Source of the DNA: an uncultured Gammaproteobacteria bacterium
GTDB lineage: Bacteria; Patescibacteriota; Microgenomatia; UBA8517; UBA10165
NCBI GenBank assembly: GCA_964472675.1
Contig: CAYYLO010000001.1
Location: 21,704-85,703 of the forward strand
Reading direction: 5' to 3'
DNA length: 64,000 nt
Shown: piece after piece, positions 45,860 through 64,000 of the stretch
Numbering within the stretch: position 1 is the first letter of the stretch
Layout of the letters: each line of letters opens with the position of its first letter
Notes under the pieces: model-generated
Told to the model about the DNA's origin: nothing
What the model saw: only the letters and a program-made list of their open reading frames with translations
Databases searched by the model: none
Position numbers and translations under genes: made by a program

Positions 45860-46654
45860 ATGAATTACCCTGATGACTTCATTAATAAAATTGTTTGCGG
45901 GGACGTGTTGGAGGTTATGGCTGAAATGCCAAACGAGTGTATAGATTTAGTTATCACTTCACCACCTTATAACCTAAAAAATTCTACAGGTAATGGGATG
46001 AAGGATGGTCGTGGCGGAAAGTGGTCAAAAGCAGCACTTATAAGCGGGTATACGGATCACGGAGACAACATGCCGCACAAAGAGTATGTTGGGTGGCAAA
46101 GAAAGTGTTTAGCAGAAATGATGCGTGTCGTAAAAGAGGATGGTGCAATTTTCTATAATCACAAATGGAGAGTGCAAAACGGTTTACTACAAGATAGGCA
46201 CGATATTGTTGAAAGTTTTCCAGTTAGACAAATCATCATATGGAAACGAAAAGGGGGAATAAATTTTAACAAGGGTTACTTCTTGCCTACTTATGAAGTA
46301 ATTTATTTAATAGCAAAACCTAAGTTCAAGCTATCACCCAAGGCAAATGCATTCGGAGATGTGTGGGAACTCACACAAGAAATGAAAAATGCCCATCCCG
46401 CCCCATTTCCGGTTTCTCTTATTAACAGGATTGTTTCTTCCACTAACGCACAGATTATTCTTGATCCATTCATGGGGTCTGGGACTACAGGAGTTGCGGC
46501 TAAAGCTTTAGGTAGAAACTATATAGGAATTGAGATTTCGCCCCAATACTGTAAAATGGCTCGAGACAGAATAGAAGGAGCAAACCCACAAAAAGAATTA
46601 AGACTTAGTAAGCAAATAGAACTTTTTGATAACACAAATGCAGATTTACACTAA
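45860..46654 (+). CDS. Beta-class DNA methyltransferase (N4-cytosine/N6-adenine; SPPY motif suggests m4C)
   Basis: IDLVITSPPYNL (motif IV) preceding DPFMGSGTTGVAAKALGRNYIGIEI (motif I), the beta-class order; N6_N4_Mtase-like. Confidence 0.85.
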   Translation: MNYPDDFINKIVCGDVLEVMAEMPNECIDLVITSPPYNLKNSTGNGMKDGRGGKWSKAALISGYTDHGDNMPHKEYVGWQRKCLAEMMRVVKEDGAIFYNHKWRVQNGLLQDRHDIVESFPVRQIIIWKRKGGINFNKGYFLPTYEVIYLIAKPKFKLSPKANAFGDVWELTQEMKNAHPAPFPVSLINRIVSSTNAQIILDPFMGSGTTGVAAKALGRNYIGIEISPQYCKMARDRIEGANPQKELRLSKQIELFDNTNADLH

Positions 46655-47426
46655 GTCATCTCTAATACAAAAACTGAAGGACATTAGAGATATGGGCTGG
46701 ATAAAATCTAAACGGCCGGGAAACGCCGGAGCAGTTGGTAACACTCTTGAGGATCTCCTTGGAATAAAAGAGAACAACCTACCTATTCCTAACGCAGCTG
46801 AATGGGAACTAAAAGCTCAGCGAAAGAATACAACCTCACTTACTACACTTTTCCACATGGAGCCCTCACCCCAAGGAGCAAATATCGTTTCCTCTGTACT
46901 ATTGCCCCATTACGGCTGGGCCCATAAAGAAGCAGGAACTAGACATAAAGCAGAAGAGAAGAGGTTTAGTTTGACAACCAACGCAGTGACATCTACAGAT
47001 CGCGGATTTAGAGTTGTTGTAAATAGGGAAAAGAAGAAGGTGGAAATTTCATTTGATCTAAGTGCAACAAATATTACAAAACACAGAGACTGGTTGGCTG
47101 AAGTTGAGAAAAACATTGGACTAGGTCAGCTTAACCCGCAACCTTATTGGGGTTTTACAGACCTTATGTATAAAGCCGGGACAAAACTGAAAAATTCTTT
47201 TTATGTGTTAGCTAATAACAAGTGGGAAGGTGATAATGAATATTTTTTCTTTGAAGAAGTCAGCATCCTTACAGAATTTGACTTTGAAGATTTTCTAAAA
47301 TGTATCGAAAAAGGTTTTATATTAGTAGACTTTGATGCACGGAGTGGTCACAATCATGGAACTAAATTTAGAATAAGACAAAACCATTGGCCTGACTTAT
47401 ATAAATCTTGCACCAAAGTTATCTAA
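46638..47426 (+). CDS. Type II restriction endonuclease, MvaI/BcnI-like (PD-(D/E)XK)
   Basis: N-terminal GWIKSKRPGNAGAVGNTLEDLLGI ... AEWELKAQRKNTTSLTTLFHMEPSP resembles the MvaI/BcnI family ELK catalytic region. About 260 aa, and overlaps the methyltransferase 3' end, which is typical R-M operon organisation. MvaI/BcnI partner MTases are m4C enzymes, consistent with the SPPY MTase upstream. Confidence 0.5.
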   Translation: MQIYTKSSLIQKLKDIRDMGWIKSKRPGNAGAVGNTLEDLLGIKENNLPIPNAAEWELKAQRKNTTSLTTLFHMEPSPQGANIVSSVLLPHYGWAHKEAGTRHKAEEKRFSLTTNAVTSTDRGFRVVVNREKKKVEISFDLSATNITKHRDWLAEVEKNIGLGQLNPQPYWGFTDLMYKAGTKLKNSFYVLANNKWEGDNEYFFFEEVSILTEFDFEDFLKCIEKGFILVDFDARSGHNHGTKFRIRQNHWPDLYKSCTKVI

Positions 47427-52577: not shown

Positions 52578-54464
52578 TCACATGAAGCGGGTCTTGATAG
52601 TTTTACTAGTTTCTTTTGTTCTTGTTTTGCTAGGACTTTTCGTGGCACGGAAAGGCACAAACGTCACAAGAATTGGGGTAGCAGCAAGCCCTACCCAAGA
52701 AATAAGCGAAATTACATTGCCTACGGTTCTAGCCTCTGTGTTATAAAGACGAGCTGCAACTTCGTGTTCTCCCTTAGACAAGTCAACATGCATCCGCCCC
52801 CACTCGTCCTGGTTTAACAACACAGAGACTTCCTTGCCATCCACAAAAACTTTCCAGCCTGGGAACTTGAAAATGTTTATGCGCACAACGCCATTATCCT
52901 CATCTTGAGCTACTTTGAATTTTGCCCAGTTGGAGCCTTGAGAAGCATCACTAATTTGCCCCTTACCTGAAACTGCCTCGGCAACAGTTTTTTGCGGCGC
53001 TTTGGGAGCAGCTGAAGCATCTTTTGGCAAATAATCGTATATTCCGGCAGTTTGTTGCAAATCCCAGGCAGCACCTGAGAATTTTTCCTGGTCAGTTAAG
53101 GGGCCCATTTTTTCAGGTTTAAAAAACTGCCAGTTCCAACCAATAACCACCGCAATCAAGACAAAAACTACCCACTTGGCTATTTTGGGATACGTCTTGG
53201 TCAATAAAACTGTACTTGTCCCAGCCACAACAGAGAAGGAAAGCACGGCCAAAGTCAGGAAACGCCAGGGAAACTGTACAAAAAGCAGGGGAGGTATTTG
53301 TTGCCAGATAAACGTCGACTTAACATGAGCCATAAAAGTCGCAAACCAACCCGACAAAAAGAAAAACATGGTCACCAGGACCAGTTCATTGTTGATTTTC
53401 CGACGCTTCAGCAACTTCCATCCCAAAAATAAAACTACGACAATTGCCAATATCCAATGAATTTGCCCGACGGGGAAAGCCATCTTGTCATCTGCGTCTG
53501 CCCAGGCGGAGGGGCCATATCCCCAAAAGCGGCTGGTTAAAAGCTGGCGAATATTGGCAAAATGGGCAACATACTCGTAGTAACCTTGTGTTAAAGTCTC
53601 TACATGTACAAGTTTCTGTTCCAAAAAAACCGGCAAAGTAAAAAATGCGCTCAGCCCAAAAGCCCAGGCACCGCTTATTGCCAAATTGGGGACAGACCTC
53701 CAAGCTTTGTATTTTAATATCCAAATTAAAAGCCAGGCTAAAAAGAGGGGAGTGAAAATTAAAACCATAAGATTGTGCGACGTAAGCAACGCGAACCAGG
53801 CTAAGGCCAGAACCAAAAGCCATCTTGACGGGTGGCGTGGGCGGAGGGAGTCCCACTGAGCCCCCGCAGTCTCGCCAAAGGCGGACGAGGAGGTCGAGTG
53901 GGACGAGCCCGCGACAGGACCCGTCATCCCCGTGGCAGGACCCGAAGCAGGCATAGAACTCTTTATTAATCTGTAACCAGACCACAAAATTAGCGGGAAC
54001 CAAACTAGCGACCAGGCCTCATTCATCGCCCCACGCACATAAATATCAACAGAATGATACGGTGCCCAAATATAAAAAGCGGCAGACAAAAGACCGCCAA
54101 GACGCCCAAAGAATTCACGGGCAAAAATATACATGGTTACACCGCTTATTAAGAAAGACAGAAGAAACGTCAGCTTTACAGTCGTTACAAATGAAAATTG
54201 AAAAAGCCTGAATACCTCCCCCACTAAATAGGGGAGAGGCGGATAAAAATTAAAAAGAGGAAAACCGTAACCGTACCCCATATATTGCGTCCAACGGCAG
54301 GGAATTTGAAAGTCAGCAAAACACTTCTCCATCGCCAGTTGCCTCATCATCTGGAGATCATCATGCATTAAAAAATAGCCGGGGCGCAGAAGCCACCAGC
54401 CAGCCAAAAGTCCAAGCCCAAGCACAAGATAAAAATAAGGATCACTACGGCGCAGAAGGTTCAT
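52578..54464 (-). CDS. YfhO-like/PTPS-related GT-C membrane protein carrying an in-frame GC-rich insertion
   Basis: Colinear with the N-half of the 13817..17173 fusion protein (FADFQIPCRW, PLFNFYPPLPY) and with the YfhO C-terminal beta-sandwich (FKFPGWKVFVDG...GEHEVAARLY). Contains a ~45-aa SGPT-rich insert (MPASGPATGMTGPVAGSSHSTSSSAFGETAGAQWDSLRPRHPSRW). Confidence 0.65.
   Translation of the reverse strand: MNLLRRSDPYFYLVLGLGLLAGWWLLRPGYFLMHDDLQMMRQLAMEKCFADFQIPCRWTQYMGYGYGFPLFNFYPPLPYLVGEVFRLFQFSFVTTVKLTFLLSFLISGVTMYIFAREFFGRLGGLLSAAFYIWAPYHSVDIYVRGAMNEAWSLVWFPLILWSGYRLIKSSMPASGPATGMTGPVAGSSHSTSSSAFGETAGAQWDSLRPRHPSRWLLVLALAWFALLTSHNLMVLIFTPLFLAWLLIWILKYKAWRSVPNLAISGAWAFGLSAFFTLPVFLEQKLVHVETLTQGYYEYVAHFANIRQLLTSRFWGYGPSAWADADDKMAFPVGQIHWILAIVVVLFLGWKLLKRRKINNELVLVTMFFFLSGWFATFMAHVKSTFIWQQIPPLLFVQFPWRFLTLAVLSFSVVAGTSTVLLTKTYPKIAKWVVFVLIAVVIGWNWQFFKPEKMGPLTDQEKFSGAAWDLQQTAGIYDYLPKDASAAPKAPQKTVAEAVSGKGQISDASQGSNWAKFKVAQDEDNGVVRINIFKFPGWKVFVDGKEVSVLLNQDEWGRMHVDLSKGEHEVAARLYNTEARTVGNVISLISWVGLAATPILVTFVPFRATKSPSKTRTKETSKTIKTRFM
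53829..53952. repeat. GC-rich imperfect-palindromic element, copy B, inserted in-frame in a YfhO-like GT-C gene
   Basis: Arms gggagtcccac (53846-53856) and gtgggacgagccc (53898-53910); same orientation as copy A; the peptide it encodes is absent from the paralogous module in 13817..17173. Confidence 0.75.
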
Positions 54465-55993
54465 TCTATCAATTCTAACAGCAAGAGAGACTCCTGTGTA
54501 CCATTGGCTCTCTTGGCTTTCGGATAGGAATTAACGAGTTTTAAGCCAACTTCTTCTGGATGTTCAATTTTAAAGCGAGTCGAGTTCACCACTAAAAAAA
54601 CCCTATCACCTGCAACTTTAGCATCAACCAAAGACTTGTCCACTCCAGTTATGGTTATTCCCACACCCTTAACTACGATTCCCGGGATATCAGACAGGTA
54701 AATTTGCAAACCGTCAGGCAAGGTTCCAAAAAATCCCTCCGTTCCGACCAAAACCTTTTGATTTGGATTTTGCGCTTTTTGCGCTTTTACATATTGGGCA
54801 ATTTCGCGAATACCCTTTCCGGCAGTCCACTCCTCCAAATATCCGGCTCGTTCTTCCCGTGGAAGGGGCGCCTGGGCAGGATTAGTAAGTATTTTGTAAT
54901 TTACAAATAAAGACGGTAAGACAATAAAGGCACCGCCCAAAGCCAGGAGATTTTTATTTTTGACTCTTCCTAGCGCATATGCTGCCAATATCAAAATCGG
55001 AGGCAGGGTAAAAAGTATGTAGCGTGCCGTAAAAACCCTGGCAAAGGCCGCCTCAATTACCAGAGGCCCAATACTCCACCCCAATAGCAATAAAAGCTGG
55101 CGCCAATCCTTTTTTAAGGCCAGCACTGCCCCCAAAATGGCAATCAAAAGTACAGTTATCGGCAGCATTTTGGAAAACCAGTCAAAGAGATCATAAAAGT
55201 GCGGGATTGCTGGGTCCAGTGGATGCCGCAAAACTTCTGAAAAACTATAGACATAATCTTTGTTTCGCAAAGCCAGCATGTGGAAACTGGGGCCTAAGCG
55301 CAGAATATTGTACATCCCCAAAGCAATAACCCACGACACCAGCCACAGTGCTCCCAATTTTCCCAACTTCCCCCACTTGCCCTTTCCCCTGAATTCCCCT
55401 AATAGCAGAGTAGAAGGCAGGAGGAGCAGGAAAAATACCCCCGGGGATTTAGTCAGATATGCAAAACCCAAAGCAAAACCGGTTAACATCGCCCAATCAA
55501 GCCTTAACTCCTGCACTGTGAGTACTCCAAAATAGAGGCTCCACACCCCAAAGCAAGCCAATAAGCTATCAACCAACGCCATTCTGTCAAAAAAAACTGT
55601 AAAAGGCGATACAGCATAGATTAGCGCAGCCAAAATTGCCGTCTTTTTGTTCTTGAAGAGCCTTAAAGTGACAAAAAAAATTCCCGTCAAGGTTCCCAAT
55701 CCTGCCAGGACAGACAATGTTCTTCCAGCAACCAAAGGATCGCTTATCACCTTTAAAAAAGGAATGGTTAGCCACATAAACAGCGGCTGCTTGCCGTCCT
55801 CCAAGGGCAGAAAACGCAAAGTTGAAACAGCTCTCATAACTTGAGCCCAACGGATATAAATCGCCTCATCGGCAAAAATAGGAATGGAGAAAATGTTGTA
55901 TGTGCGAAGCAATATTGCCAGGAGTAGTACAACCATTCCCCAAAGTATTACCGCTCGCCACTTTGTATCCTCTGAAAATTGGAAATTGGACAT
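54461..55993 (-). CDS. ArnT/GT83-like (PMT_2) GT-C membrane glycosyltransferase
   Basis: IFADEAIYIRWAQVM loop motif as in ArnT. Start set at internal ATG (MSNFQF, 55993) to avoid a 59-nt overlap with the upstream GT2; the track ORF extends to 56068. The start is embedded in the GAAATTG heptamer array. Confidence 0.7.
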   Translation of the reverse strand: MSNFQFSEDTKWRAVILWGMVVLLLAILLRTYNIFSIPIFADEAIYIRWAQVMRAVSTLRFLPLEDGKQPLFMWLTIPFLKVISDPLVAGRTLSVLAGLGTLTGIFFVTLRLFKNKKTAILAALIYAVSPFTVFFDRMALVDSLLACFGVWSLYFGVLTVQELRLDWAMLTGFALGFAYLTKSPGVFFLLLLPSTLLLGEFRGKGKWGKLGKLGALWLVSWVIALGMYNILRLGPSFHMLALRNKDYVYSFSEVLRHPLDPAIPHFYDLFDWFSKMLPITVLLIAILGAVLALKKDWRQLLLLLGWSIGPLVIEAAFARVFTARYILFTLPPILILAAYALGRVKNKNLLALGGAFIVLPSLFVNYKILTNPAQAPLPREERAGYLEEWTAGKGIREIAQYVKAQKAQNPNQKVLVGTEGFFGTLPDGLQIYLSDIPGIVVKGVGITITGVDKSLVDAKVAGDRVFLVVNSTRFKIEHPEEVGLKLVNSYPKAKRANGTQESLLLLELIE

Positions 55994-56010
55994 TGGAAAT
56001 TGGAAATTTT
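55974..56010. repeat. GAAATTG heptamer tandem array (5 units) at the GT2/ArnT-like gene junction
   Basis: gaaaattg gaaattg gacattg gaaattg gaaattt read directly from the sequence; it spans the probable ArnT-like start codon. Confidence 0.8.
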
Positions 56011-56795
56011 TATTTGTATTTCCCCTGGAGCGCATACCAGCGAATCCGAAGCATGTCGCGCAACCCATCGATGGAATCTTTAATAATATTTACTCGAGTT
56101 GTGCCAGGGTGATGCCATTCCACAGGCATTTCCTTTATTTTATAACCAAGCTTGCGGGCAACAAACAAAATCTCCAGGTCAAATCCTGCTTTAACTGCTG
56201 CACCGGAAATTACCCCACCCTTGCCAAAAATTTTCAAACGGGAGAAAATGTCACGCGCCGCCTCTTGTTTGAAAGCCTTAAATCCTGTTTGTGTATCCTT
56301 GAAAGGCAATCTCAAAATCATAGTTCTTAAAATAACAAATCCATAAGCAGTGATCTTGCGGATAAAAGGCATTCCTGCTCTGCCATGCCTTGATCCGATC
56401 ACCACATCATATCCCTGCTCGAAATGTGGCAAAAACTTTTCTACCTGATTTATTGGAGTTGCCTGATCTGTATCTGTAAAGAGAATAATCGCGCCGCCTG
56501 CTTTACCTACACCCGTAGTTACAGTTGCCGCCTTCCCCTGGTGCGGGTTCCTAATAAGCCTCACCCTTTCGTCCTGCTTTTCGAACTTTTCCAGAAGTGT
56601 AGCAGTGTTATCTGCCGATCCGTCGTCTACAAATATTATCTCCCAGGTGTATTTTTGCTTTTTGAGATATGAAATTAAACTTTCGGGAGCGCCTCTTTTT
56701 ATATTGACTTCCTCGTTATATGCCGGCACTACCACTGACAAAAATGGTGTATTTTTATACGCAGTTGAAGAGAAATTCTGATTTGTTTTACTCAT
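56010..56795 (-). CDS. GT2 polyprenyl-phosphate sugar synthase (Dpm1/GtrB-like)
   Basis: LSVVVPAYNEEVNI ... FVDDGSADNT ... FTDTDQA ... KDTQTGFKAFKQEAARDIF. Confidence 0.85.
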   Translation of the reverse strand: MSKTNQNFSSTAYKNTPFLSVVVPAYNEEVNIKRGAPESLISYLKKQKYTWEIIFVDDGSADNTATLLEKFEKQDERVRLIRNPHQGKAATVTTGVGKAGGAIILFTDTDQATPINQVEKFLPHFEQGYDVVIGSRHGRAGMPFIRKITAYGFVILRTMILRLPFKDTQTGFKAFKQEAARDIFSRLKIFGKGGVISGAAVKAGFDLEILFVARKLGYKIKEMPVEWHHPGTTRVNIIKDSIDGLRDMLRIRWYALQGKYK

Positions 56796-58311
56796 TGATC
56801 CTTTGTCTTCGTTCCACAGTTATCCCTCCAAACCGGGCACTTTTTTCAACCTTGCCAATCCCTTCTTGACGCGCAAGCCATGCATCCAGCCTCTCGGGAT
56901 GTGGAGGGTCAACCTCATATAGAGTATACAGAAGTTTTTCCCTTTGTTCGACAGGAGCGCAAGATTTTACAGCGCCTCCATACCATGTAAACAGATATTT
57001 GTAAGCATGTGGAATCACAGGCGGCACGTACTCGTCGTCGTTAAACTTTCGGCAACCCCCCATATCCTGATAAATCCAATCCAACGCTTGTTTTTGATTG
57101 CCGAAAGCGATAGTGTTCGGCCCATCAACGTTGTTATTAATATAATTTTTTGTAATTGGTAAATTATCGTTCAGAAAAAAATAGATAAAAAGGACTAAAA
57201 CAAGTTTTCCCCACCATGCCCGGGCAGCCAAGCCAAAAACAGAAGCCATAACTAAAACAAAAACAAAGTAGTAACCGGTAAAATAGTAGTCATACACGTT
57301 TCCCTGATTGCCCTGGAAAAATACCATTCCGGCAAGAGGAGATACAAAAACAAGTAAAACTGCCGGAAAGTACCTATTTTTAAAAAGGCGTCTTGCAACT
57401 ATTAAAAATCCAGCTCCCAGGATAAGCGCTGTTTTGTACCTGTATTGCCCTGTGACCGGAAAAAGTTTTGAGCCGAATATGTCCAGATAAAACTTCCCTC
57501 TTGCGCTTACAATATCCCAAAAGGAAAGCTTAAAACTTTGGTCTCCGATTAAAAATTTACCAATAGCCACCCGTAATATTCCTTCGTGTTTAATATCAAA
57601 CCAGATTTGTGGGACAAACGTGACAAAGAGCGCTGCTAAGCTTAACCCAAACACAAACAGCGATGGTAAAGTTTTTCGCTGCCACACGGCAAAAATTAAA
57701 GTTGCCGGGAACAAAAACACTTCTGTCGCACTGCCAAATTGCATAGCCATTCCCAATAAAAACCCAATAGGAATCCAGGCCCATATCCTTTTCTGAATTA
57801 CTAAAAACATGGAATACAGTAAAAGCATGCTTACTAGAAACATGGGCGTAGGATTGGAAAGCCATCGGGCGGCAACTACAAAGAAGAAGGAAAAAGCTCC
57901 AATGATCAAAGCAGTAAACGCTCCGGTTTTACCACTTATTTGGTATGTTAAGTGGAACAATACAAAAAGCGCCAGCACTGTTGTTAGAGCCAAAAACACG
58001 GCGGGCCAAACAGGATCTCCTCTACCCAACCAATAAAAAGGCGTAATCAGCCAATAGTACCAGGGTCCTCTGAAAATCCCCTCAATGCCTGTGGTCGGGC
58101 CAATTAAGAATAGCTTGCCGCGGTGCAGGAAATCCCAAACAACTTGAGCATCTCTGCCCTGATCAAAATAAAAACCCAAAATTTTATCCGTTCTCCAAAC
58201 CCGCACATATGCCGCCAGGATTAAAATCACAAAGAGCACATAATAAGTCATGCGTCCAGGCATTCTTTCCAAAGCCAACTCTTTTTGTAAATTCTTCCAA
58301 ATTTTCTTCAC
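56788..58311 (-). CDS. ArnT/GT83-like GT-C membrane glycosyltransferase
   Basis: GFYFDQGRDAQVVWDFL...LIGPTTGIEGIFRGPWYYWL, paralogous to the 28899 and 59300 proteins. Confidence 0.6.
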   Translation of the reverse strand: MKKIWKNLQKELALERMPGRMTYYVLFVILILAAYVRVWRTDKILGFYFDQGRDAQVVWDFLHRGKLFLIGPTTGIEGIFRGPWYYWLITPFYWLGRGDPVWPAVFLALTTVLALFVLFHLTYQISGKTGAFTALIIGAFSFFFVVAARWLSNPTPMFLVSMLLLYSMFLVIQKRIWAWIPIGFLLGMAMQFGSATEVFLFPATLIFAVWQRKTLPSLFVFGLSLAALFVTFVPQIWFDIKHEGILRVAIGKFLIGDQSFKLSFWDIVSARGKFYLDIFGSKLFPVTGQYRYKTALILGAGFLIVARRLFKNRYFPAVLLVFVSPLAGMVFFQGNQGNVYDYYFTGYYFVFVLVMASVFGLAARAWWGKLVLVLFIYFFLNDNLPITKNYINNNVDGPNTIAFGNQKQALDWIYQDMGGCRKFNDDEYVPPVIPHAYKYLFTWYGGAVKSCAPVEQREKLLYTLYEVDPPHPERLDAWLARQEGIGKVEKSARFGGITVERRQRINE

Positions 58312-59303
58312 AGATTTTTTAAATATTCTTTAACCCGACCGATAATTTCATTGACCTTTTCCTCAAAGATGCCAGAAAATTTAGTTGCGAAACCAGCTGC
58401 AGCAACGTGCCCTCCTCCGCCAAACATGGAAGCAATTTTGGCAACATCAATTTCTGTGCGGCTTCTCAAACTTCCCGTTATCATTCCCTTTTCTTCCTCT
58501 CTTAATATTAACGCGAAATCTACTCCATCAATATTTTTAGCAATATCAGATCCGCCAACGGCAAATTCTGTTCCGCCCAAACTCTCTATTTCGGGCAAAG
58601 ACGTGGCCGCCCAAACGAAGTTATATTTCCCTGAAGTTTCTTGTCTTAACTTTCGAACAACTTCCGCCTGATATTGCACTTCTTTAAGAGGTGTCCGGCT
58701 GTAAAGGTTAAAATTAACTACATCTAAATCCGCACCAGATTTAATTAACTGACTTGCCGCGTCCAAAGTATTTTCAGACGTTACCCACCGGAAAGTCCCC
58801 GTATCGGCGGCTATTGCAGTTAAAAGATCAGTCGCGATTTTAGAATTGACAGATGCACCCCAATCCTGAAATAACCTGCAAAGAATTTCCCCTGTGGAGC
58901 TCGCCTTATCGTCAACCAAATTTATCGAGCCGAATTTTGTATTTGTTTCGTGGTGGTCAATAACAACCACTTTTTGTATTGGAAGTTTCAAGTGTTCATG
59001 CCGTGTTACTCTTTTCTCTTCCGGACTATCCATTAAAACCAGCAAATCAAACTGTTCAAAGTCTGCTTCGCGCGGATCTTTGTTGATAACACTATCAAAC
59101 TGGTGTAAAAAGTTTAAATTTATAGGAGCAGTATCCGCTGCCCAAACTTCAACGGTTTTCCCCAAACTCTTAAGATAAGAAGACAATGCAAGATTTGAGC
59201 CAACGCTATCTCCATCCGGATTAATATGCAAAGCTAAAAATATTTTTGATGAACCTTCCAGCGCTTCCTTAATAGTTGCGGATTCAGAGTAGTTTGCAGT
59301 CAT
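58308..59303 (-). CDS. nrnA: DHH-family phosphoesterase (NrnA-like bifunctional oligoribonuclease/pAp phosphatase)
   Basis: LHINPDGDSVGS (DHH motif I/II), VVIDHHETN (DHH), and C-terminal DHHA1 GGGGHVAAAGF. Confidence 0.8.
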   Translation of the reverse strand: MTANYSESATIKEALEGSSKIFLALHINPDGDSVGSNLALSSYLKSLGKTVEVWAADTAPINLNFLHQFDSVINKDPREADFEQFDLLVLMDSPEEKRVTRHEHLKLPIQKVVVIDHHETNTKFGSINLVDDKASSTGEILCRLFQDWGASVNSKIATDLLTAIAADTGTFRWVTSENTLDAASQLIKSGADLDVVNFNLYSRTPLKEVQYQAEVVRKLRQETSGKYNFVWAATSLPEIESLGGTEFAVGGSDIAKNIDGVDFALILREEEKGMITGSLRSRTEIDVAKIASMFGGGGHVAAAGFATKFSGIFEEKVNEIIGRVKEYLKNL

Positions 59304-60844
59304 GGATTGGAATGGGCAAGTTTATAGATTTTAACACCCTGTACTTCCCAGGAATCGACAATTTTACTCATCCCAAAATGGGCAATTTGGGAACTGGCGT
59401 CTGTCGTTGGACTGCAATCCTGCTTTTCGCATATTACAAACAACTGGTCGGTTACAGTTTCTGTTACGCGTTGCGGATCTGCTTCCTTAGCGGGGGATCT
59501 CCAAAGGTCAAAAAAGTAAAGATATCCTTCGTTGTAATTTCTTTCGGCAATAAGACCAATATTAAATGGCTTTCCCCCGCTTTCCTGAAGTATCTTTCGA
59601 TCAATATTTTCTGTCCTTTTCAACTGGTTTTGCCCAGAATGCTTTAGGGGAGTGTTTGTCAGGTTAAAGAGTGTCAACCCGACAATTCCCGCCAACACCA
59701 ACTGTCTTCCCCACCTTCTCTGGTTCCACACCCTCTCCGCCAAGCCTCCTATCAGTAGAAACGGTGCAGGAAATAAAAAACCAAAATAGTGGTCATAAAC
59801 ATTTTGTTTCAAAGACCCCAAGCCTACAAGTCCAACCCCCAACCACAAAATTAAGATAAACATCGGTCTATCCAATTTGCGTTTCTGCCACCAGTAAAAA
59901 AATATTCCCCCTATTGCTCCTATTCCACCAATTGTTCCTATTACCTTATTCCCCCCACTTAATAAAGAAGTCACTATCTGTTTCCAAAGCGGCCAAAGAA
60001 GCGGAAGCGCCGACCACGGTTTTGCCGAAACGGTTTCCTGTCTGTGGGAAAAAAAGATAAACATAGAGGAGAGATTGTGCCAGCCGTGCTTTGAGTCAAA
60101 AATCACGAGTGGGCTCATAAGCAAAACGAAAAACGCTAAACCGAAAAGCGTATAAAGTAAAAATCGTTTGCCGTCCTGCGTACGCAGCCGTGTGTTCGCC
60201 GTTTGCCGTGCGCCCCACCACGACAATGTCCCAAGAATTAAAATTGCCGGCGCAAGCAGTAAGCCCAAATAGTGAGACTGGAGAACAAAAGCGTATGAAA
60301 TCCCTAAAACCACCAACCACCAGTACTGTTTACCTTTCCAAACTTTCCATATACTCCAAATTGACAGTAATGCAAAAAAGGGCATTATGTTTGGATTCCA
60401 TGAATGCTTAGAAAGACCCACAACTGCCGGAGATACGGCATAAAGCAGAGCCGCAGCAACAGCCCCAATTCTGCCAAACCACTCTCTTGCAACATACCAT
60501 ATAAATGCGACAGTAGCCGTGCCTAAAATTGCAACTGAAACTGCAGGCCCTACCGGTGAAAAACGAAAAAGCAACAGCCACGGGGATATAAAGTAATAAT
60601 AGAGGGGACCCAAATACATATCCCCAATCGAAGTTCTGGGCCCGATAAACATCAAATCAAACTGAGTTAAAAACCGGTAAACCACACGAACATCCCGCCC
60701 CTCATCGCCTAAAAAAGGAAGGTACTGGTCAATTTTCCAAAGCCGGAAAAAGGCGCCCAAAAGAAGAATAACAATTAAAAAGGTGGCTTCGATTTTGTTC
60801 TTCGCCACCCACGTTCGCAATTTGTCAAATTTATCATTTGTCAT
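59300..60844 (-). CDS. ArnT/GT83-like GT-C membrane glycosyltransferase
   Basis: LPFLGDEGRDVRVVYRFL...IGPRTSIGDMYLGPLYYYF. Start set at the ATG forming an ATGA overlap with the upstream GT2 stop (60841-60844); the track ORF extends to 60898. Confidence 0.7.
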   Translation of the reverse strand: MTNDKFDKLRTWVAKNKIEATFLIVILLLGAFFRLWKIDQYLPFLGDEGRDVRVVYRFLTQFDLMFIGPRTSIGDMYLGPLYYYFISPWLLLFRFSPVGPAVSVAILGTATVAFIWYVAREWFGRIGAVAAALLYAVSPAVVGLSKHSWNPNIMPFFALLSIWSIWKVWKGKQYWWLVVLGISYAFVLQSHYLGLLLAPAILILGTLSWWGARQTANTRLRTQDGKRFLLYTLFGLAFFVLLMSPLVIFDSKHGWHNLSSMFIFFSHRQETVSAKPWSALPLLWPLWKQIVTSLLSGGNKVIGTIGGIGAIGGIFFYWWQKRKLDRPMFILILWLGVGLVGLGSLKQNVYDHYFGFLFPAPFLLIGGLAERVWNQRRWGRQLVLAGIVGLTLFNLTNTPLKHSGQNQLKRTENIDRKILQESGGKPFNIGLIAERNYNEGYLYFFDLWRSPAKEADPQRVTETVTDQLFVICEKQDCSPTTDASSQIAHFGMSKIVDSWEVQGVKIYKLAHSNP

Positions 60845-61590
60845 TGGGCATTTGTCATTTTGATTTTTCGCCATGGGCGTACCCACCACATCCTCCACAA
60901 CCCTTTAAGGTCTCCCCAGGCCGTTTTGGCAACTTTTACCGTTGAAGCCGGATCATCCCGCCAAACTATAGGTATCTCACAAATTTTGTAGCCCGACTTT
61001 TCGGCCAAAATTAGAAGTTCAGAATCAAAAAACCAGGCTTTATCAAGGATGTGCGGCAATAGTTTCTGTGCAGCTTCGCGCCTTATGCCTTTAAAGCCGC
61101 ATTGAGCATCATGAAAACTTGTCCAAAAGAATGTCTTTATTAAAATGTTGTAGCCTCTAGACATAACCTCACGAAGAAGCGTTCTCCCATAAACTTGAGC
61201 TCCCCTTTTTAACCTTGAGCCAATTGCAACATCAGCACCACCTTCAAACAATGACTTAACCAGATGGGGAAGAAAGTTTAAGTCAGAAGAAAGGTCAACA
61301 TCCATATAGACAGATACGCCCTCCTTGCTTTTAAGCCACATTTCTTTTAATGCGTTTCCCCTCCCAGGCCTGGGAATCAGCACATATTCAAGTCTTTTAT
61401 ATTTTTTAGCCAAAGCTTTAGAAACTTCTCCTGTCCGGTCTTTAGAAGGGCCATTGTCTAATATGTAGAGCCGCCAATCATAAGATTGGAAATTATCCTG
61501 CAGGTATTTATATAAAACAGGTATGGTTCGGGGAATATCTTTCTCTTCGTTATAAACAGGAACAGAAACACCAAGCGTGGGAGCACTCAT
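60841..61590 (-). CDS. GT2 polyprenyl-phosphate sugar synthase (Dpm1/GtrB-like)
   Basis: VSVPVYNEEKDI ... ILDNGPSKDRT ... MDVDLSSD ... HDAQCGFKGIRREAAQKLL. Confidence 0.85.
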   Translation of the reverse strand: MSAPTLGVSVPVYNEEKDIPRTIPVLYKYLQDNFQSYDWRLYILDNGPSKDRTGEVSKALAKKYKRLEYVLIPRPGRGNALKEMWLKSKEGVSVYMDVDLSSDLNFLPHLVKSLFEGGADVAIGSRLKRGAQVYGRTLLREVMSRGYNILIKTFFWTSFHDAQCGFKGIRREAAQKLLPHILDKAWFFDSELLILAEKSGYKICEIPIVWRDDPASTVKVAKTAWGDLKGLWRMWWVRPWRKIKMTNAQ

Positions 61591-61636
61591 AACTTTACAT
61601 TAAAGATAATATCACAAATTAAGGCAAATCATCCAC

Positions 61637-62839
61637 ATGTCTTGCCCGATTCAAGATAGTTGGTATATCATAACTAAGGTGCAAAACTTGAAAGCTCTCT
61701 TAACACTGGCTGTAGCCTCTTTGGCAACAACATTACTTCTCTGGCTGCCTTTTATCTTGCGCTTGCCTCAAATTTGGGGCATACCACTAAGACAGGATGG
61801 TATGGCAGCTGTCGTTGCCAATTATGACGGTCCTTATTATATTGTGGTTGCCAAAACTCTATACAATCCCCAAGCTATTGAAAATAACTTTTCTTTCCCC
61901 TTATCACCAATTTATTATTCGGCCCACTACCCGCTTTTCCCCCTCCTGATAAGAGCTTTAGCTTTGATTCCTGGGGCAAATTACCCCTATGCGATGATTA
62001 CGGTCACATTAATTACTACAATTTTATCTGCCTGGGTGTTTTATTTATTGCTTAATCAGCTGGGGTTAAAAAGGAGCAGCTTGTGGCTTTCGCTGCTTTT
62101 CCTTATGTTACCAGCACGTTTTTTGGTCACCCGGTCTATTGGCTCACCTGAGCCTCTATTTATACTCTTAATTCTTTCCTCAATTCTCTTTTTTGAAAAG
62201 AAAAACTACTGGCTTGCAGGAATATTCGGTGCGCTTGCCCAGCTCACAAAACCCCCCGCAATTCTGCTTTTTATTGGTTACATTTTAGCTGTCACCATTC
62301 CCTACTGGTCAGAACTTGCCCAGTCAAGCATCGCCAATTGGCTTAAGAAAATTCCCTGGAGAACATATCCTTTGATTTTAATCCCTTTAACTTTAGTCGG
62401 CTTGTGGACTTTTTACGGATACACTTATGGAAGCTTTTTGGCTTATTTTCAATCAGGCGACAACATTCATTTGCAATTCCCACCTTTTCAAATTTTTAAC
62501 CCTGCCCAAGCCTGGGTGGGAACTTTCTGGCTTGAAGAAATTATTTGGATTTACGCCATTGGCGCAATGGGAGTAGTTTATTTGGCTAAACAAAAGCAAA
62601 CAACTTTAACGTCCTTTGCCGCAGTTTTCTTTTTGGCAACGCTATTTGTCTCCCACAGGGACCTGGCACGCTATAGCTTACCTTTGGTGCCCATGATTTT
62701 CGTTGGTTTTAACAAAATACTAACAAGCCGTGAGTTCCGTTGGGTTATGGTAATTTTGATAATCCCCATTTATTTGTTTGCTATTGCCTTTATAACCAAT
62801 AACGTTACCCCTATTTCTGACTGGACCCCTTTACTTTAA
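61637..62839 (+). CDS. GT-C fold integral membrane glycosyltransferase, PIG-V-like (paralog of 7364..8533)
   Basis: ANYDGPYYIVVAKTLY and YPLFPLL loop motifs; the 400-aa multi-TM protein is colinear with 7364..8533. Confidence 0.5.
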   Translation: MSCPIQDSWYIITKVQNLKALLTLAVASLATTLLLWLPFILRLPQIWGIPLRQDGMAAVVANYDGPYYIVVAKTLYNPQAIENNFSFPLSPIYYSAHYPLFPLLIRALALIPGANYPYAMITVTLITTILSAWVFYLLLNQLGLKRSSLWLSLLFLMLPARFLVTRSIGSPEPLFILLILSSILFFEKKNYWLAGIFGALAQLTKPPAILLFIGYILAVTIPYWSELAQSSIANWLKKIPWRTYPLILIPLTLVGLWTFYGYTYGSFLAYFQSGDNIHLQFPPFQIFNPAQAWVGTFWLEEIIWIYAIGAMGVVYLAKQKQTTLTSFAAVFFLATLFVSHRDLARYSLPLVPMIFVGFNKILTSREFRWVMVILIIPIYLFAIAFITNNVTPISDWTPLL

Positions 62840-62949
62840 ACTCCTGTCGCGTGAATATCTTTTGCTTTCTCACAACTTAAAGCTTAATATATCCCAGAGC
62901 CATTTGAAGCTCGCTCGCACCATTAATTTACACAAAGGAGGTCTTGCGC

Positions 62950-63666
62950 ATGGCAAACAGACAAGTCAGGATAGCGGTGGCACTGGATGTGCCATCGCTT
63001 TTGAGCGCCCACCGACTCGTGGCTGAACTCAAGCCACATGTCGACTACTTCAAGGTAGGTCTGCAACTGCTCCACTCAGAAGGAACTCCGAGCGTCCTGC
63101 GTGTTCTACAAGGAGAAGGTGCCCGACTGATGGTGGACTGGAAGCTGCATGACATTCCGGAAACTGTCAAGCTCGCAGCCGAAGCCATCAGACAGTACAA
63201 CGTCGCCTACTTCAACTTGCACGCAACCACCGGACGCGCATCCATTTCTGCCGCCATCACCGCACGGGGTGGAAGCAAGGTCATGGGCGTTACCGTCCTG
63301 ACTTCGCTGGACGATGCGGAATGCACAGAGATCTTCGGGGCAGCAGCAGACATCAAGGTCCCGCAGTTTGCGCGTACTTTCGTGTCGCTCGGCGGCCACG
63401 CCATCATCTGCTCCGCCAAAGAGGCACAGCTTCTGCGCAGCATGCGCGAGCTTGACTCCGCGGAACTCTGGACTCCCGGAATCCGACCCGTCTGGGCTGC
63501 AGCCGGAGACCAGAAGCGAGTGCTCTCGCCCGCCGATGCAGTCCGCGCTGGAGCAGACGTCTTGATCATCGGTCGCCCGATTACTCAACCGCCAGGCGAG
63601 ATCGGAAGCCCCGTCGAGGTCACAAAGCGCATCCGCGCTGAGATCGAGGAAGCGCTAGCCGCTTAG
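62950..63666 (+). CDS. pyrF: Orotidine-5'-phosphate decarboxylase
   Basis: IAVALDVPS and the catalytic VDWKLHDIPETV (DxKxxDIP) motif; strong AAAGGAGG SD 8 nt upstream of ATG 62950 (track shows a TTG at 62944). GC about 60%, versus ~39% for the rest of the window. Confidence 0.85.
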   Translation: MANRQVRIAVALDVPSLLSAHRLVAELKPHVDYFKVGLQLLHSEGTPSVLRVLQGEGARLMVDWKLHDIPETVKLAAEAIRQYNVAYFNLHATTGRASISAAITARGGSKVMGVTVLTSLDDAECTEIFGAAADIKVPQFARTFVSLGGHAIICSAKEAQLLRSMRELDSAELWTPGIRPVWAAAGDQKRVLSPADAVRAGADVLIIGRPITQPPGEIGSPVEVTKRIRAEIEEALAA

Positions 63667-63678
63667 GGAGGAAGTGTC

Positions 63679-64000
63679 ATGGTTATTGCGGCAACAGACA
63701 GATGCTTGCCAGAGAAGGCAGTACTTTTACACCTGAGACAAGCTGGCGCAGTCCTGACAGACGATCACTTCGTCTACACGTCAGGAAGGCACGGCAGCGC
63801 CTACGTCAACAAGGACGCTGTATATCCTGATGCGGGACTTGCCAACGGCCTCTGTATCGACATCGCTCGCCACTTCCAAGATGCAGAAGTGCAAACAGTG
63901 GTGGGAACCGAGCACGGCGGCATCATCCTGCAATTCGCCACTACCTGGAACTTGCGGATGCAGACTGGTCGCCAGATCAGCGGTGTATACGCAGAAAACG
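63679..64000 (+). CDS. pyrE: Orotate phosphoribosyltransferase-like (type I PRTase), 3'-truncated by window end
   Basis: HFVYTSGRHGSAYVNKD parallels PyrE's FTLKSGRKSPYFFN hood region. GGAGGA SD precedes the ATG; GC-rich like pyrF; runs off the window. Confidence 0.55.
   Translation, partial: MVIAATDRCLPEKAVLLHLRQAGAVLTDDHFVYTSGRHGSAYVNKDAVYPDAGLANGLCIDIARHFQDAEVQTVVGTEHGGIILQFATTWNLRMQTGRQISGVYAEN

What the first reader, a model, noticed from the sequence alone, without database searches (positions are those of the whole stretch)
62880..64000. Abrupt GC jump (about 39% to 60%) at a pyrF-pyrE pair: horizontal transfer or chimeric contig
Everything up to 62.9 kb is AT-rich. From 62950 the two genes (OMP decarboxylase, OPRTase-like) are ~60% GC, with strong canonical SD sequences and different codon usage. 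CPR-type organisms, which the gene content here resembles, generally lack de novo pyrimidine synthesis. So either this is a notable metabolic acquisition from a high-GC donor, or the contig end is chimeric (metagenome mis-join).
Basis: partly seen in the sequence, partly recalled or inferred. Interest (0 to 1): 0.6.

Follow-up and report, generated by a model that had tools for sequence, protein, structure and literature searches.

The report
Foreign high-GC pyrF-pyrE gene island
The GC jump is real and is not an assembly error: a tiny groundwater-type bacterium (Candidatus Blackburnbacteria) carries a two-gene island taken from a GC-rich organism that should let it turn orotate into the RNA/DNA building block UMP. 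This is an ordinary though clean case of horizontal gene transfer.

Summary
Observation confirmed. GC steps from 0.41 to 0.58 at the pyrF ribosome-binding site and start codon (62,941-62,950). That is z=7.5 for GC, GC3 0.66 against 0.39, and z=15 for tetranucleotides.

It is not a mis-join. Four independent per-run assemblies cross the junction at 100% identity. The same pyrF-pyrE block sits at the same locus in two other Ca. Blackburnbacteria species, with low-GC host genes on both sides. The window is a slice of a 105.8-kb contig, not a contig end.

The island is about 1.45 kb. It has strong Shine-Dalgarno sites and, in the relatives, a terminator. No integrase, tRNA or att repeats were found.

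PyrF has all catalytic motifs and dN/dS of about 0.2. The second gene is OPRTase-like but scores below NCBIfam's curated cut-off.

Substitutions in the island run net GC to AT, while the flanks are balanced, so it is still ameliorating. The donor is unidentified: nothing outside the Blackburn-type clade exceeds 52% identity.

Among 81 loci with PyrF relatives, the 11 strongest GC outliers are CPR-labelled or CPR-like contigs.

Likely function is orotate + PRPP to OMP to UMP. Whether this is salvage or part of a full pathway is untested. Interest is modest.

The parts
61637..62839 (+). Last host-composition gene before the island: a 400-aa polytopic membrane protein with a sub-cut-off match to the AZOBR_p60025 surface-glycopolymer family. 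It marks the left flank.
   Evidence: GC about 0.40. NF046093 scores 55.6 bits (E=4.2e-15), below its curated cut-off of 150. Orthologues sit immediately upstream of pyrF in L005 and L085.
62840..62949 (+). Low-GC intergenic leader. A block from 62,860 to 62,921 is conserved in three species and contains TTGCTT-N17-TAATAT (62,862-62,890). This is a possible but weak promoter.
   Evidence: Three-species alignment, 86% mean column identity. The sigma-70 scan finds no site passing its threshold. No Rfam match. The fold is no better than shuffles, z=-0.21.
62934..62941 (+). Shine-Dalgarno AAAGGAGG, 8 nt before the pyrF ATG.
   Evidence: Read directly from the sequence. Conserved in L005 and L085. 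Strong SD motifs are rare among host ORFs in the window.
62950..63666 (+). pyrF, orotidine-5'-phosphate decarboxylase, 238 aa, GC 0.60.
   Evidence: PF00215 E=1.8e-40. TIGR01740 131 bits against a cut-off of 92. Aligns end to end with the solved OMPDC 3tr2, E=3.9e-31, keeping D13, K35, D63-x-K65-x-x-D68, GDQKR and IGRPI. dN/dS 0.16-0.28 among three species.
63666..63671 (+). Shine-Dalgarno GGGAGG for the second gene. Its first G is the last base of the pyrF TAG stop codon (63,664-63,666).
   Evidence: Read directly from the sequence.
63679..64000 (+). 5' part (107 of 220 codons) of an OPRTase-like type I phosphoribosyltransferase gene (pyrE-like), cut by the window end. GC 0.55.
   Evidence: TIGR01367 E=1.3e-9 on the fragment. 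The full-length protein of the same organism, P0122 (220 aa), has an identical N-terminus and the PRPP motif VLIVDDILTTGSS. L001 continues the ORF 61 nt beyond the window.
63284..63804 (+). Tract of near-identity to the Rifle-aquifer species (L005). This is a recent recombination or gene-conversion patch inside the island.
   Evidence: A 156-nt exact match at 63,284-63,439, plus exact runs of 76, 76, 43 and 42 nt. dS is 0.063 for the 3' half of pyrF, against 0.8-2.7 in flanking genes and saturation in the 5' half. Identity profile.

Best explanation
The last 1.05 kb of the window is the left two-thirds of a roughly 1.45-kb, two-gene island (pyrF, then a pyrE-like gene). The island was acquired horizontally from a GC-rich organism by an ancestor of a group of Candidatus Blackburnbacteria species (Microgenomates, CPR). 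It is now fixed at one chromosomal site, between a surface-glycan gene cluster and a GT2/GtrA-trmD block.

Shown:
- The junction is genuine.
- The island is bracketed by host-composition DNA in sister species.
- It is a strong compositional, codon-usage and SD outlier.
- It is under purifying selection.
- It is losing GC, so it has not reached host equilibrium.
- It has been partly re-exchanged between sister species by homologous recombination.

Inferred: the genes are transcribed as one operon from the conserved AT-rich leader and end at the hairpin/T-run terminator seen in the relatives. The PyrE-like enzyme condenses orotate with PRPP to OMP, and PyrF decarboxylates OMP to UMP. This gives an organism of a group that usually cannot make nucleotides a route from orotate to all pyrimidine nucleotides. 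That orotate is taken up from a host or the environment is assumed, not shown.

The donor and the insertion mechanism are unknown. No integrase, tRNA or flanking repeats were found. Uptake of naked DNA followed by illegitimate recombination is my guess.
For: - Junction reproducibility: L001-L004, from four different sequencing runs, match window 61,973-64,000, 62,504-63,812, 53,867-63,490 and 60,647-63,487 at 100% with no gaps.
- Conserved position: L005 (MHBW01000005, Ca. Blackburnbacteria RIFCSPHIGHO2_01_FULL_43_15b) and L085 (GCA_016198465, in the interior of a 107-kb contig) have the order DHH, PMT_2, GT2, membrane protein, pyrF, pyrE, GT2/GtrA, trmD. GC is 0.55-0.64 only over about 1.4 kb and 0.36-0.48 on both sides. 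L089 shows pyrE at GC 0.58 with the same downstream genes.
- Foreignness: z=7.5 (GC), 5.6 (GC3), -5.7 (codon fit), 15 (tetranucleotides). SD motifs are present on both island genes against 4 of 48 host ORFs.
- pyrF need not be GC-rich. Across 81 loci, the excess of pyrF GC over its flanks has a median of +4.3 points. In low-GC Woesearchaeota and cyanobacteria it is 0 to +2. The window-type loci are +15 to +17.
- Non-equilibrium: polarised substitutions in the island are 141 GC-to-AT against 92 AT-to-GC. In the flanks they are 455 against 535. Fisher p=8e-5.
- Function: Pfam and TIGR thresholds are met and all catalytic motifs are present for PyrF. dN/dS is 0.16-0.28. The PyrE-like gene is adjacent to pyrF in 21 of the fetched loci from other organisms, across many phyla, and fused to it in L014 and P0211.
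Against: - No donor was found. Outside the Blackburn-type clade (100, 84, 80, 71 and 63% identity), the best PyrF match among 5.8 billion proteins is 52%. Deep nodes of the NJ tree have 26-40% bootstrap support.
- There are no mobility genes, tRNA or att-like repeats at the island ends, and no viral relatives.
- The PyrE-like protein scores 117-118 bits against TIGR01367, below the curated 150.25, so its substrate is inferred from context.
- The presence or absence of pyrB/C/D, PRPP synthetase and an orotate transporter in this genome was not testable here.
- Synonymous divergence in part of the island is lower than in the flanks. The simple picture of one ancient insertion followed by vertical descent is therefore incomplete.
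- The three-taxon parsimony used to polarise substitutions is crude at this divergence.
Confidence: 0.85

Rival explanations
1. Assembly chimera: the high-GC end was mis-joined to a CPR contig from another organism in the metagenome.
For: The composition break is abrupt and lies near the end of the window. The source is a metagenome-assembled genome.
Against: Four independent assemblies of different runs cross the junction at 100% identity. Two other species from other projects, about 80% identical in DNA, have the same junction and return to host GC and host genes after pyrE. The window end is not a contig end: the contig is 105,837 nt and PyrE is full-length in it.
Confidence: 0.01
2. Native, vertically inherited CPR genes whose GC content is kept high locally, either by selection on the proteins or mRNA or by GC-biased gene conversion at a recombination hot spot. 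No foreign origin is involved.
For: A recent recombination tract lies inside the island. pyrF is a few points more GC-rich than its surroundings in most genomes, median +4.3. No donor or mobility signature was found.
Against: - The excess here is +15 to +17 points, and GC3 is 0.66 against 0.39.
- pyrF exists at host-like low GC in other AT-rich genomes, for example L033 at 0.376 against 0.377 and L019 with GC3 of 0.22. The protein therefore does not impose high GC.
- The island is currently losing GC, 141 GC-to-AT against 92 AT-to-GC. This is the opposite of a process that drives GC upward.
- SD usage differs from the host's.
Confidence: 0.07
3. Functional rival, compatible with HGT: the pair is not an orotate-salvage module. 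It is a xenologous replacement of, or addition to, a complete de novo pyrimidine pathway whose other genes (pyrB, pyrC, pyrD, carAB) lie elsewhere in the genome.
For: Some CPR appear to have the whole pathway. L016 (Falkowbacteria) carries what read, from ORF order and translations, as pyrB-pyrC-pyrK-pyrD-pyrF-pyrE in one operon (not domain-scanned). A 2025 paper reports pyrimidine biosynthesis genes in two cultivated-consortium Patescibacteria (PMC12239599).
Against: In the window, L005, L085 and L089 (about 110 kb in total) no other pyr gene was seen (the window was only partly domain-scanned). In Paceibacterota, Zambryskiibacteria and Falkowbacteria the same two-gene unit is inserted alone among housekeeping genes. 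CPR surveys report incomplete nucleotide pathways as the rule (PMC7304191; PMC11974145).
Confidence: 0.3

Closest known systems
Bacterial pyrF-pyrE pair at the end of Firmicutes-type pyr operons (pyrD-pyrF-pyrE order, known to me from Bacillus subtilis; stated from my own knowledge)
   Same: Same gene order and tight spacing. PyrF is of the short bacterial type with D-x-K-x-x-D. The pyrF-pyrE adjacency is also seen here in Tepidanaerobacteraceae, Eubacteriales, Bacillota, Omnitrophota and Planctomycetia loci.
   Different: Here the pair stands alone, without pyrR/B/C/AA/AB/K/D upstream, inside a glycan-synthesis neighbourhood. No PyrR-type leader RNA was detected. Its composition is foreign to the host.
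Thermus-type orotate phosphoribosyltransferase (NCBIfam TIGR01367, pyrE_Therm)
   Same: It is the best-scoring family over the full length, positions 2-183 of 187. The PRPP-binding loop VLxVDDxLTTGxS is present.
   Different: The score is 117-118 bits, below the curated cut-off of 150.25. The closest solved OPRTase, 4paw, matches at only E=1.8e-11. It should be called OPRTase-like until assayed.
Compositionally atypical genomic islands from horizontal transfer, with later amelioration (Lawrence-Ochman framework; stated from my own knowledge)
   Same: A sharp GC, codon and oligonucleotide discontinuity limited to an operon-sized block, with a net GC-to-AT flux towards the host's composition.
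   Different: It is very small (two genes) and has no integrase, tRNA target or direct repeats. It is fixed across several species rather than strain-variable.
GC-elevated pyrF-pyrE cassettes in other CPR lineages (Paceibacterota L007, Zambryskiibacteria L009, Falkowbacteria L011 and L014, Nealsonbacteria L010)
   Same: The same two-gene unit (pyrF only in L010), 10-22 GC points above its host, inserted alone among unrelated housekeeping genes.
   Different: It is a different sequence lineage: about 50% amino-acid identity to the window's PyrF, forming a separate clade with 96% bootstrap support. This points to separate acquisitions, not one shared ancestral insertion.

Membership tests
Orotidine-5'-phosphate decarboxylase (PyrF; PF00215 / TIGR01740) | Score above the curated Pfam and TIGRFAM thresholds over the full domain | tested here: met
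   PF00215 139.6 bits against 27, residues 7-213. TIGR01740 131.4 bits against 92.3.
Orotidine-5'-phosphate decarboxylase (PyrF; PF00215 / TIGR01740) | Score above the stricter NCBIfam equivalog model NF001273 (PRK00230) | tested here: not met
   184.1 bits against a cut-off of 193. This is a near miss. The protein is a divergent member, consistent with no relative above 52% identity outside its own clade.
Orotidine-5'-phosphate decarboxylase (PyrF; PF00215 / TIGR01740) | Catalytic Asp / Lys / Asp-x-Lys-x-x-Asp array and the C-terminal phosphate-gripper (GDQKR, GRP) | tested here: met
   D13, K35, D63-W-K65-L-H-D68, GDQKRV and IIGRPI align with the same residues of the solved OMPDC 3tr2 (sequence).
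Orotidine-5'-phosphate decarboxylase (PyrF; PF00215 / TIGR01740) | Decarboxylation of OMP to UMP | not testable with these tools
   Needs an enzyme assay or complementation of a pyrF mutant.
Orotate phosphoribosyltransferase (PyrE; TIGR01367 / TIGR00336) | Score above the curated equivalog cut-off | tested here: not met
   Full-length orthologues score 117.2 and 118.1 bits against 150.25 (TIGR01367), and 63 and 60 bits against 106.8 (TIGR00336). The window fragment scores 38 bits.
Orotate phosphoribosyltransferase (PyrE; TIGR01367 / TIGR00336) | Type I PRTase fold with a PRPP-binding loop | tested here: met
   PF00156 is precomputed for P0121-P0126. The motif VLIVDDILTTGSS is present in P0122.
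Orotate phosphoribosyltransferase (PyrE; TIGR01367 / TIGR00336) | Genomic coupling to pyrF | tested here: met
   Adjacent to pyrF in 21 of the fetched loci from other organisms, across many phyla, plus two Logan contigs of the window itself. Fused to pyrF in L014 and in P0211, which has PF00156 + PF00215.
Orotate phosphoribosyltransferase (PyrE; TIGR01367 / TIGR00336) | Orotate specificity | not testable with these tools
   Adenine, xanthine and other PRTase models score far lower (at most 44 bits), but substrate needs an assay.
Horizontally acquired genomic island | Composition, codon and oligonucleotide usage deviate from the host beyond gene-to-gene variation | tested here: met
   z=7.5, 5.6, -5.7 and 15. 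The island is +15 to +17 GC points over its flanks, against a median of +4.3 in 81 loci.
Horizontally acquired genomic island | Gene phylogeny incongruent with organismal phylogeny, with an identifiable donor clade | tested here: inconclusive
   The nearest non-clade relatives are a mix of CPR, Gammaproteobacteria-, Binatia- and Rhodospirillaceae-labelled MAGs at 47-52% identity. Deep NJ nodes have 26-40% bootstrap support.
Horizontally acquired genomic island | Mobility hallmarks: integrase or transposase, tRNA target, flanking direct repeats | tested here: not met
   No tRNA in the window, L005, L085 or L089. Only short chance-level repeats occur at the ends. The neighbours are glycosyltransferases and trmD.
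Horizontally acquired genomic island | Ongoing amelioration towards host composition | tested here: met
   Island: 141 GC-to-AT against 92 AT-to-GC. Flanks: 455 against 535. Fisher p=8e-5. Caveat: three-taxon parsimony.
Metagenome assembly chimera | Junction not reproducible in independent assemblies or related genomes | tested here: not met
   The junction is reproduced in four independent assemblies and conserved in two further species.

The most novel reading that the evidence does not exclude
The pyrF-pyrE pair is a small, self-contained 'orotate to UMP' module that reaches CPR/Patescibacteria repeatedly from GC-rich donors. It appears in Microgenomates, several Parcubacteria classes and possibly Saccharibacteria, each time 10-22 GC points above its host and inserted at a different site. 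After arrival it keeps being exchanged between sister species. If so, orotate cross-feeding from hosts or neighbours would be a recurrent way for these reduced bacteria to cover their pyrimidine needs, selected for independently several times.
Probability: 0.3. Interest if true: 0.5.

Novelty: new member of a known kind. Interest (0 to 1): 0.3.

Why it matters
For the scan, it settles that this composition break is biology and not a mis-assembly, so the contig can be trusted.

For CPR biology, it is a clean and datable example of how a reduced, probably host-dependent bacterium patches one metabolic gap with a two-gene foreign operon. It gives a concrete, testable prediction: Blackburnbacteria and several Parcubacteria can grow on, or depend on, exogenous orotate. 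That could help in designing co-culture or enrichment media.

Beyond that it is a routine horizontal transfer of well-known enzymes.

Tried and rejected
- Regulatory RNA in the leader. I suspected a PyrR-type attenuator from the CCAGAG motif. Rfam at E up to 10 finds nothing relevant and the fold is no better than shuffles. Rejected.
- Sigma-70 promoter scan. No site passes. The conserved TTGCTT-N17-TAATAT is kept only as a weak candidate.
- Phage or mobile vector. A scan of IMG/VR gave one marginal 28-residue match. There are no integrase, tRNA or att repeats. Rejected as far as the data go.
- Donor identification. A genome scan, two protein searches and a bootstrapped NJ tree gave no relative above 52% identity outside the clade and no supported sister group.
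- Downstream flank in the window's own organism. A look-up of the exact full-length PyrE (P0122) found no contig on record. The right boundary is therefore shown only in sister species.
- Literature. Six searches found no paper describing pyrE/pyrF or orotate use in CPR, only general statements on missing or present nucleotide pathways.
- Structure prediction and the exhaustive representative search were not run, because the family assignment of PyrF is unambiguous by sequence.
- The third homologue search was not spent on PyrD or PyrB. A top-120 list cannot prove absence from one genome.
Full report
**1. The observation**

The window is uniformly AT-rich until its last kilobase. Every 1-kb bin from 1 to 63,000 has GC of 0.36-0.475, and the last bin has 0.587. 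At 200-nt resolution the rise starts in 62,800-62,999 and GC stays at 0.535-0.645 to the window end.

The step falls on the ribosome-binding site (AAAGGAGG, 62,934-62,941) and start codon (62,950) of the first of two + strand genes.

I compared the terminal 1,051 nt with all 1,050-nt windows of the first 62.9 kb (mean 0.408, sd 0.024, maximum 0.48). It is 7.5 sd out. GC3 of the first gene is 0.66, against 0.39 +/- 0.05 for 49 background ORFs. Its synonymous-codon fit to the host is 5.7 sd low, and the tetranucleotide distance is 15 sd out.

**2. The genes**

ORF 62,950-63,666 (238 aa) is orotidine-5'-phosphate decarboxylase:
- PF00215, E=1.8e-40.
- TIGR01740, 131 bits against a cut-off of 92.
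- It just misses the stricter NF001273 model, 184 against 193.
- It aligns end to end with the solved OMPDC 3tr2 and keeps D13, K35, D63-x-K65-x-x-D68, GDQKR and IGRPI.

ORF 63,679 onwards is cut by the window end after 107 codons. The full-length protein of the same organism (P0122, 220 aa, identical N-terminus) carries the PRPP loop VLIVDDILTTGSS.

Its best family is the Thermus-type OPRTase, TIGR01367. Full-length orthologues reach only 117-118 bits against a curated cut-off of 150.25. "OPRTase-like" is therefore the correct label.

Its coupling to pyrF is strong. It is adjacent in 21 of the fetched loci from other organisms, across many phyla. It is fused to pyrF in a Falkowbacteria contig and in protein P0211.

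**3. Not a chimera**

The exact PyrF protein, and the exact upstream 400-aa protein, are each encoded on independent per-run Logan assemblies (SRR12113420, SRR12113385, SRR12113424, SRR12113384). These four contigs match the window at 100% identity without gaps, and each crosses 62,850-62,950.

The identical PyrF and the full-length PyrE also belong to an NCBI contig of 105,837 nt. The window is therefore a slice of a longer contig, not a contig end.

**4. The host and the conserved site**

The best genomic relative is Candidatus Blackburnbacteria RIFCSPHIGHO2_01_FULL_43_15b (L005; PyrF 79% identical). A third species is GCA_016198465 (L085; 84%).

Both show the same gene order: DHH phosphoesterase, PMT_2, GT2, membrane protein, pyrF, pyrE, GT2/GtrA (minus strand), trmD. 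In both, GC is 0.55-0.64 only across about 1.4 kb and 0.36-0.48 on either side. In L085 the island lies in the interior of a 107-kb contig.

A fourth lineage (L089) has pyrE at GC 0.58 followed by the same downstream genes.

DNA identity between the three species is about 50-95% in the flanks and 57-100% in the island. The island is thus a fixed feature of a clade, not of one assembly.

**5. Anatomy of the island**

The 110-nt leader is host-like in GC. It contains a block conserved in all three species, including TTGCTT-N17-TAATAT. This fails the sigma-70 consensus scan, so it is only a candidate promoter.

No Rfam family matches and the leader does not fold better than shuffled sequence.

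Both genes have strong SD motifs. Only 4 of 48 host ORFs in the window show a 5-mer SD, with the caveat that host start codons were taken mechanically.

In L005 and L085, pyrE is followed by a conserved 18-bp-stem hairpin and a T-run.

No tRNA, integrase or flanking direct repeats are present. There are no viral relatives.

**6. Evidence for foreign origin**

Besides the composition statistics, three results argue against a native gene with locally raised GC.

First, pyrF does not have to be GC-rich. Across 81 loci carrying relatives, pyrF exceeds its flanks by a median of 4.3 points (IQR 3.1-6.5). In AT-rich Woesearchaeota and cyanobacteria the excess is 0-2 points. Here it is 15-17 points.

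Second, polarised substitutions among the three species run 141 GC-to-AT against 92 AT-to-GC in the island, but 455 against 535 in the flanks (Fisher p=8e-5). The island is still drifting towards the host's composition.

Third, SD usage differs from that of the host.

**7. The donor**

The donor remains unknown. Identities to the window's PyrF run 100, 84, 80, 71 and 63% within a Blackburn-type clade (100% bootstrap support). They then drop to 52% or less.

The next relatives are a mix of other CPR and MAGs labelled Gammaproteobacteria, Binatia and Rhodospirillaceae. The latter carry the same pyrF-pyrE pair at their own native high GC. The nodes joining these groups have only 26-40% bootstrap support.

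**8. A wider pattern**

The 11 largest GC excesses among the 81 loci (+10 to +22 points) are CPR-labelled or CPR-like contigs. They are the window itself (represented by its Logan contig L003), two Blackburnbacteria, three Falkowbacteria, Zambryskiibacteria, Paceibacterota, Nealsonbacteria, one unlabelled Logan contig (L086), and one contig labelled Gammaproteobacteria (L018) whose cassette is 88% identical in DNA to a Falkowbacteria one.

In the Parcubacteria, the two-gene unit is inserted alone among unrelated housekeeping genes. By my reading of the ORF translations, these are near adk/map, infB/rbfA, prfA and tig/smpB (not domain-scanned). It forms its own clade with 96% bootstrap support.

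pyrF-pyrE therefore seems to have entered CPR genomes several times. One Falkowbacteria contig instead appears to have a whole pyrB-C-K-D-F-E operon, so CPR are not uniformly without the pathway.

**9. After the acquisition**

pyrF is under purifying selection, with dN/dS of 0.16-0.28.

The island is a mosaic. Between the window and L005, the segment 63,284-63,804 is about 96% identical, with a 156-nt exact run and dS of 0.063. Flanking genes have dS of 0.8-2.7, and the 5' half of pyrF is saturated.

At least one recent homologous exchange between sister species has therefore overwritten part of the island.

**10. Mechanism**

Shown: two intact, selected genes, one of them an unambiguous OMP decarboxylase.

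Inferred: they form one operon. The PyrE-like enzyme makes OMP from orotate and PRPP, and PyrF makes UMP.

CPR bacteria commonly lack nucleotide synthesis (PMC7304191; PMC11974145). No other pyr gene was seen in about 110 kb of Blackburnbacteria sequence examined, of which the window was only partly domain-scanned. The pair is also transferred alone in other CPR. I therefore favour an orotate-salvage role, at about 0.5.

A xenologous replacement within a complete pathway, at about 0.3, cannot be excluded without the whole bins.

A link to the surrounding glycan locus, through UMP to UTP to UDP-sugars, is only a thought.

**11. Verdict**

This is a real, conserved, still-ameliorating horizontally acquired pyrF-pyrE island in Ca. 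Blackburnbacteria. The chimera reading is refuted.

It is a new example of a well-known kind of event, involving textbook enzymes, so interest is modest. The recurrent, CPR-specific compositional outlier status of this two-gene module is the part worth a follow-up.

Noticed in passing
window 10,526-60,898 (mostly - strand): The window is one large surface-glycan locus. It holds 13 paralogous 500-1,100-aa PMT_2/ArnT-type GT-C membrane glycosyltransferases, linked by all-vs-all BLAST. It also has GT1 and GT2 enzymes, two Polysacc_synt flippases, GDP-mannose 4,6-dehydratase, a YfhO-family protein and an LPG_synthase_TM protein. That is an unusual density of GT-C paralogues for a small genome.
   Followed up: partly
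window 63,284-63,804 versus L005 10,335-10,855: There is a 156-nt exact match and about 96% identity (dS 0.063) between two species whose flanking genes have dS of 0.8-2.7. The 5' half of pyrF (62,950-63,280) is only 57-66% identical and synonymously saturated. This is a recombination mosaic inside the island.
   Followed up: yes
L014 8,955-10,433 (Falkowbacteria LH_S3); protein P0211: pyrF and pyrE are fused into one 492-aa ORF, the reverse domain order to eukaryotic UMP synthase. A frame change near the 3' end of the pyrE part may be an assembly error or decay. P0211 (323 aa) also combines PF00156 and PF00215.
   Followed up: no
L016 5,488-11,677 (Falkowbacteria MFD04716): A CPR contig carries what read, from ORF order and translations, as a full pyrB-pyrC-pyrK-pyrD-pyrF-pyrE-like operon. 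It is itself 5-15 GC points above its flanks. This shows that some CPR probably have the de novo pathway, likely also acquired.
   Followed up: partly
L089 72-341 and L086 6,053-6,807: In a fourth Blackburn-type lineage a GIY-YIG endonuclease gene lies just upstream of pyrE. The matching pyrF sits at the end of another contig behind Lon and YkuD genes instead of the glycan cluster. The left flank of the island is therefore rearranged there, possibly around a mobile endonuclease gene.
   Followed up: no
window, 48 host ORF starts: Only 4 of 48 host ORFs have a 5-mer Shine-Dalgarno motif within 20 nt of the mechanically chosen start codon, while both island genes have one. Either this lineage uses SD-led initiation rarely, or many starts are mis-set.
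   Followed up: partly
L005 11,470-11,700: About 230 nt of GC-rich non-coding sequence lie downstream of the pyrE terminator in the Rifle species. It is absent from L085. It may be a remnant of a longer original insert.
   Followed up: no
L013 4,806-5,462; L017 11,489-12,933; L006 6,352-6,957: The high-GC MAG contigs that carry the native-composition pyrF-pyrE pair also carry one to two paralogous genes next to it. These encode roughly 220-aa secreted proteins with an HExxGHxxG metalloprotease-like motif. Their function and the true taxonomy of these MAGs are unclear.
   Followed up: no
window 45,860-47,426: An N6/N4 DNA methyltransferase gene (PF01555, E=2.9e-44) is followed by an overlapping 266-aa ORF of unknown family. 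It may be a restriction-modification pair embedded in the glycan locus.
   Followed up: no
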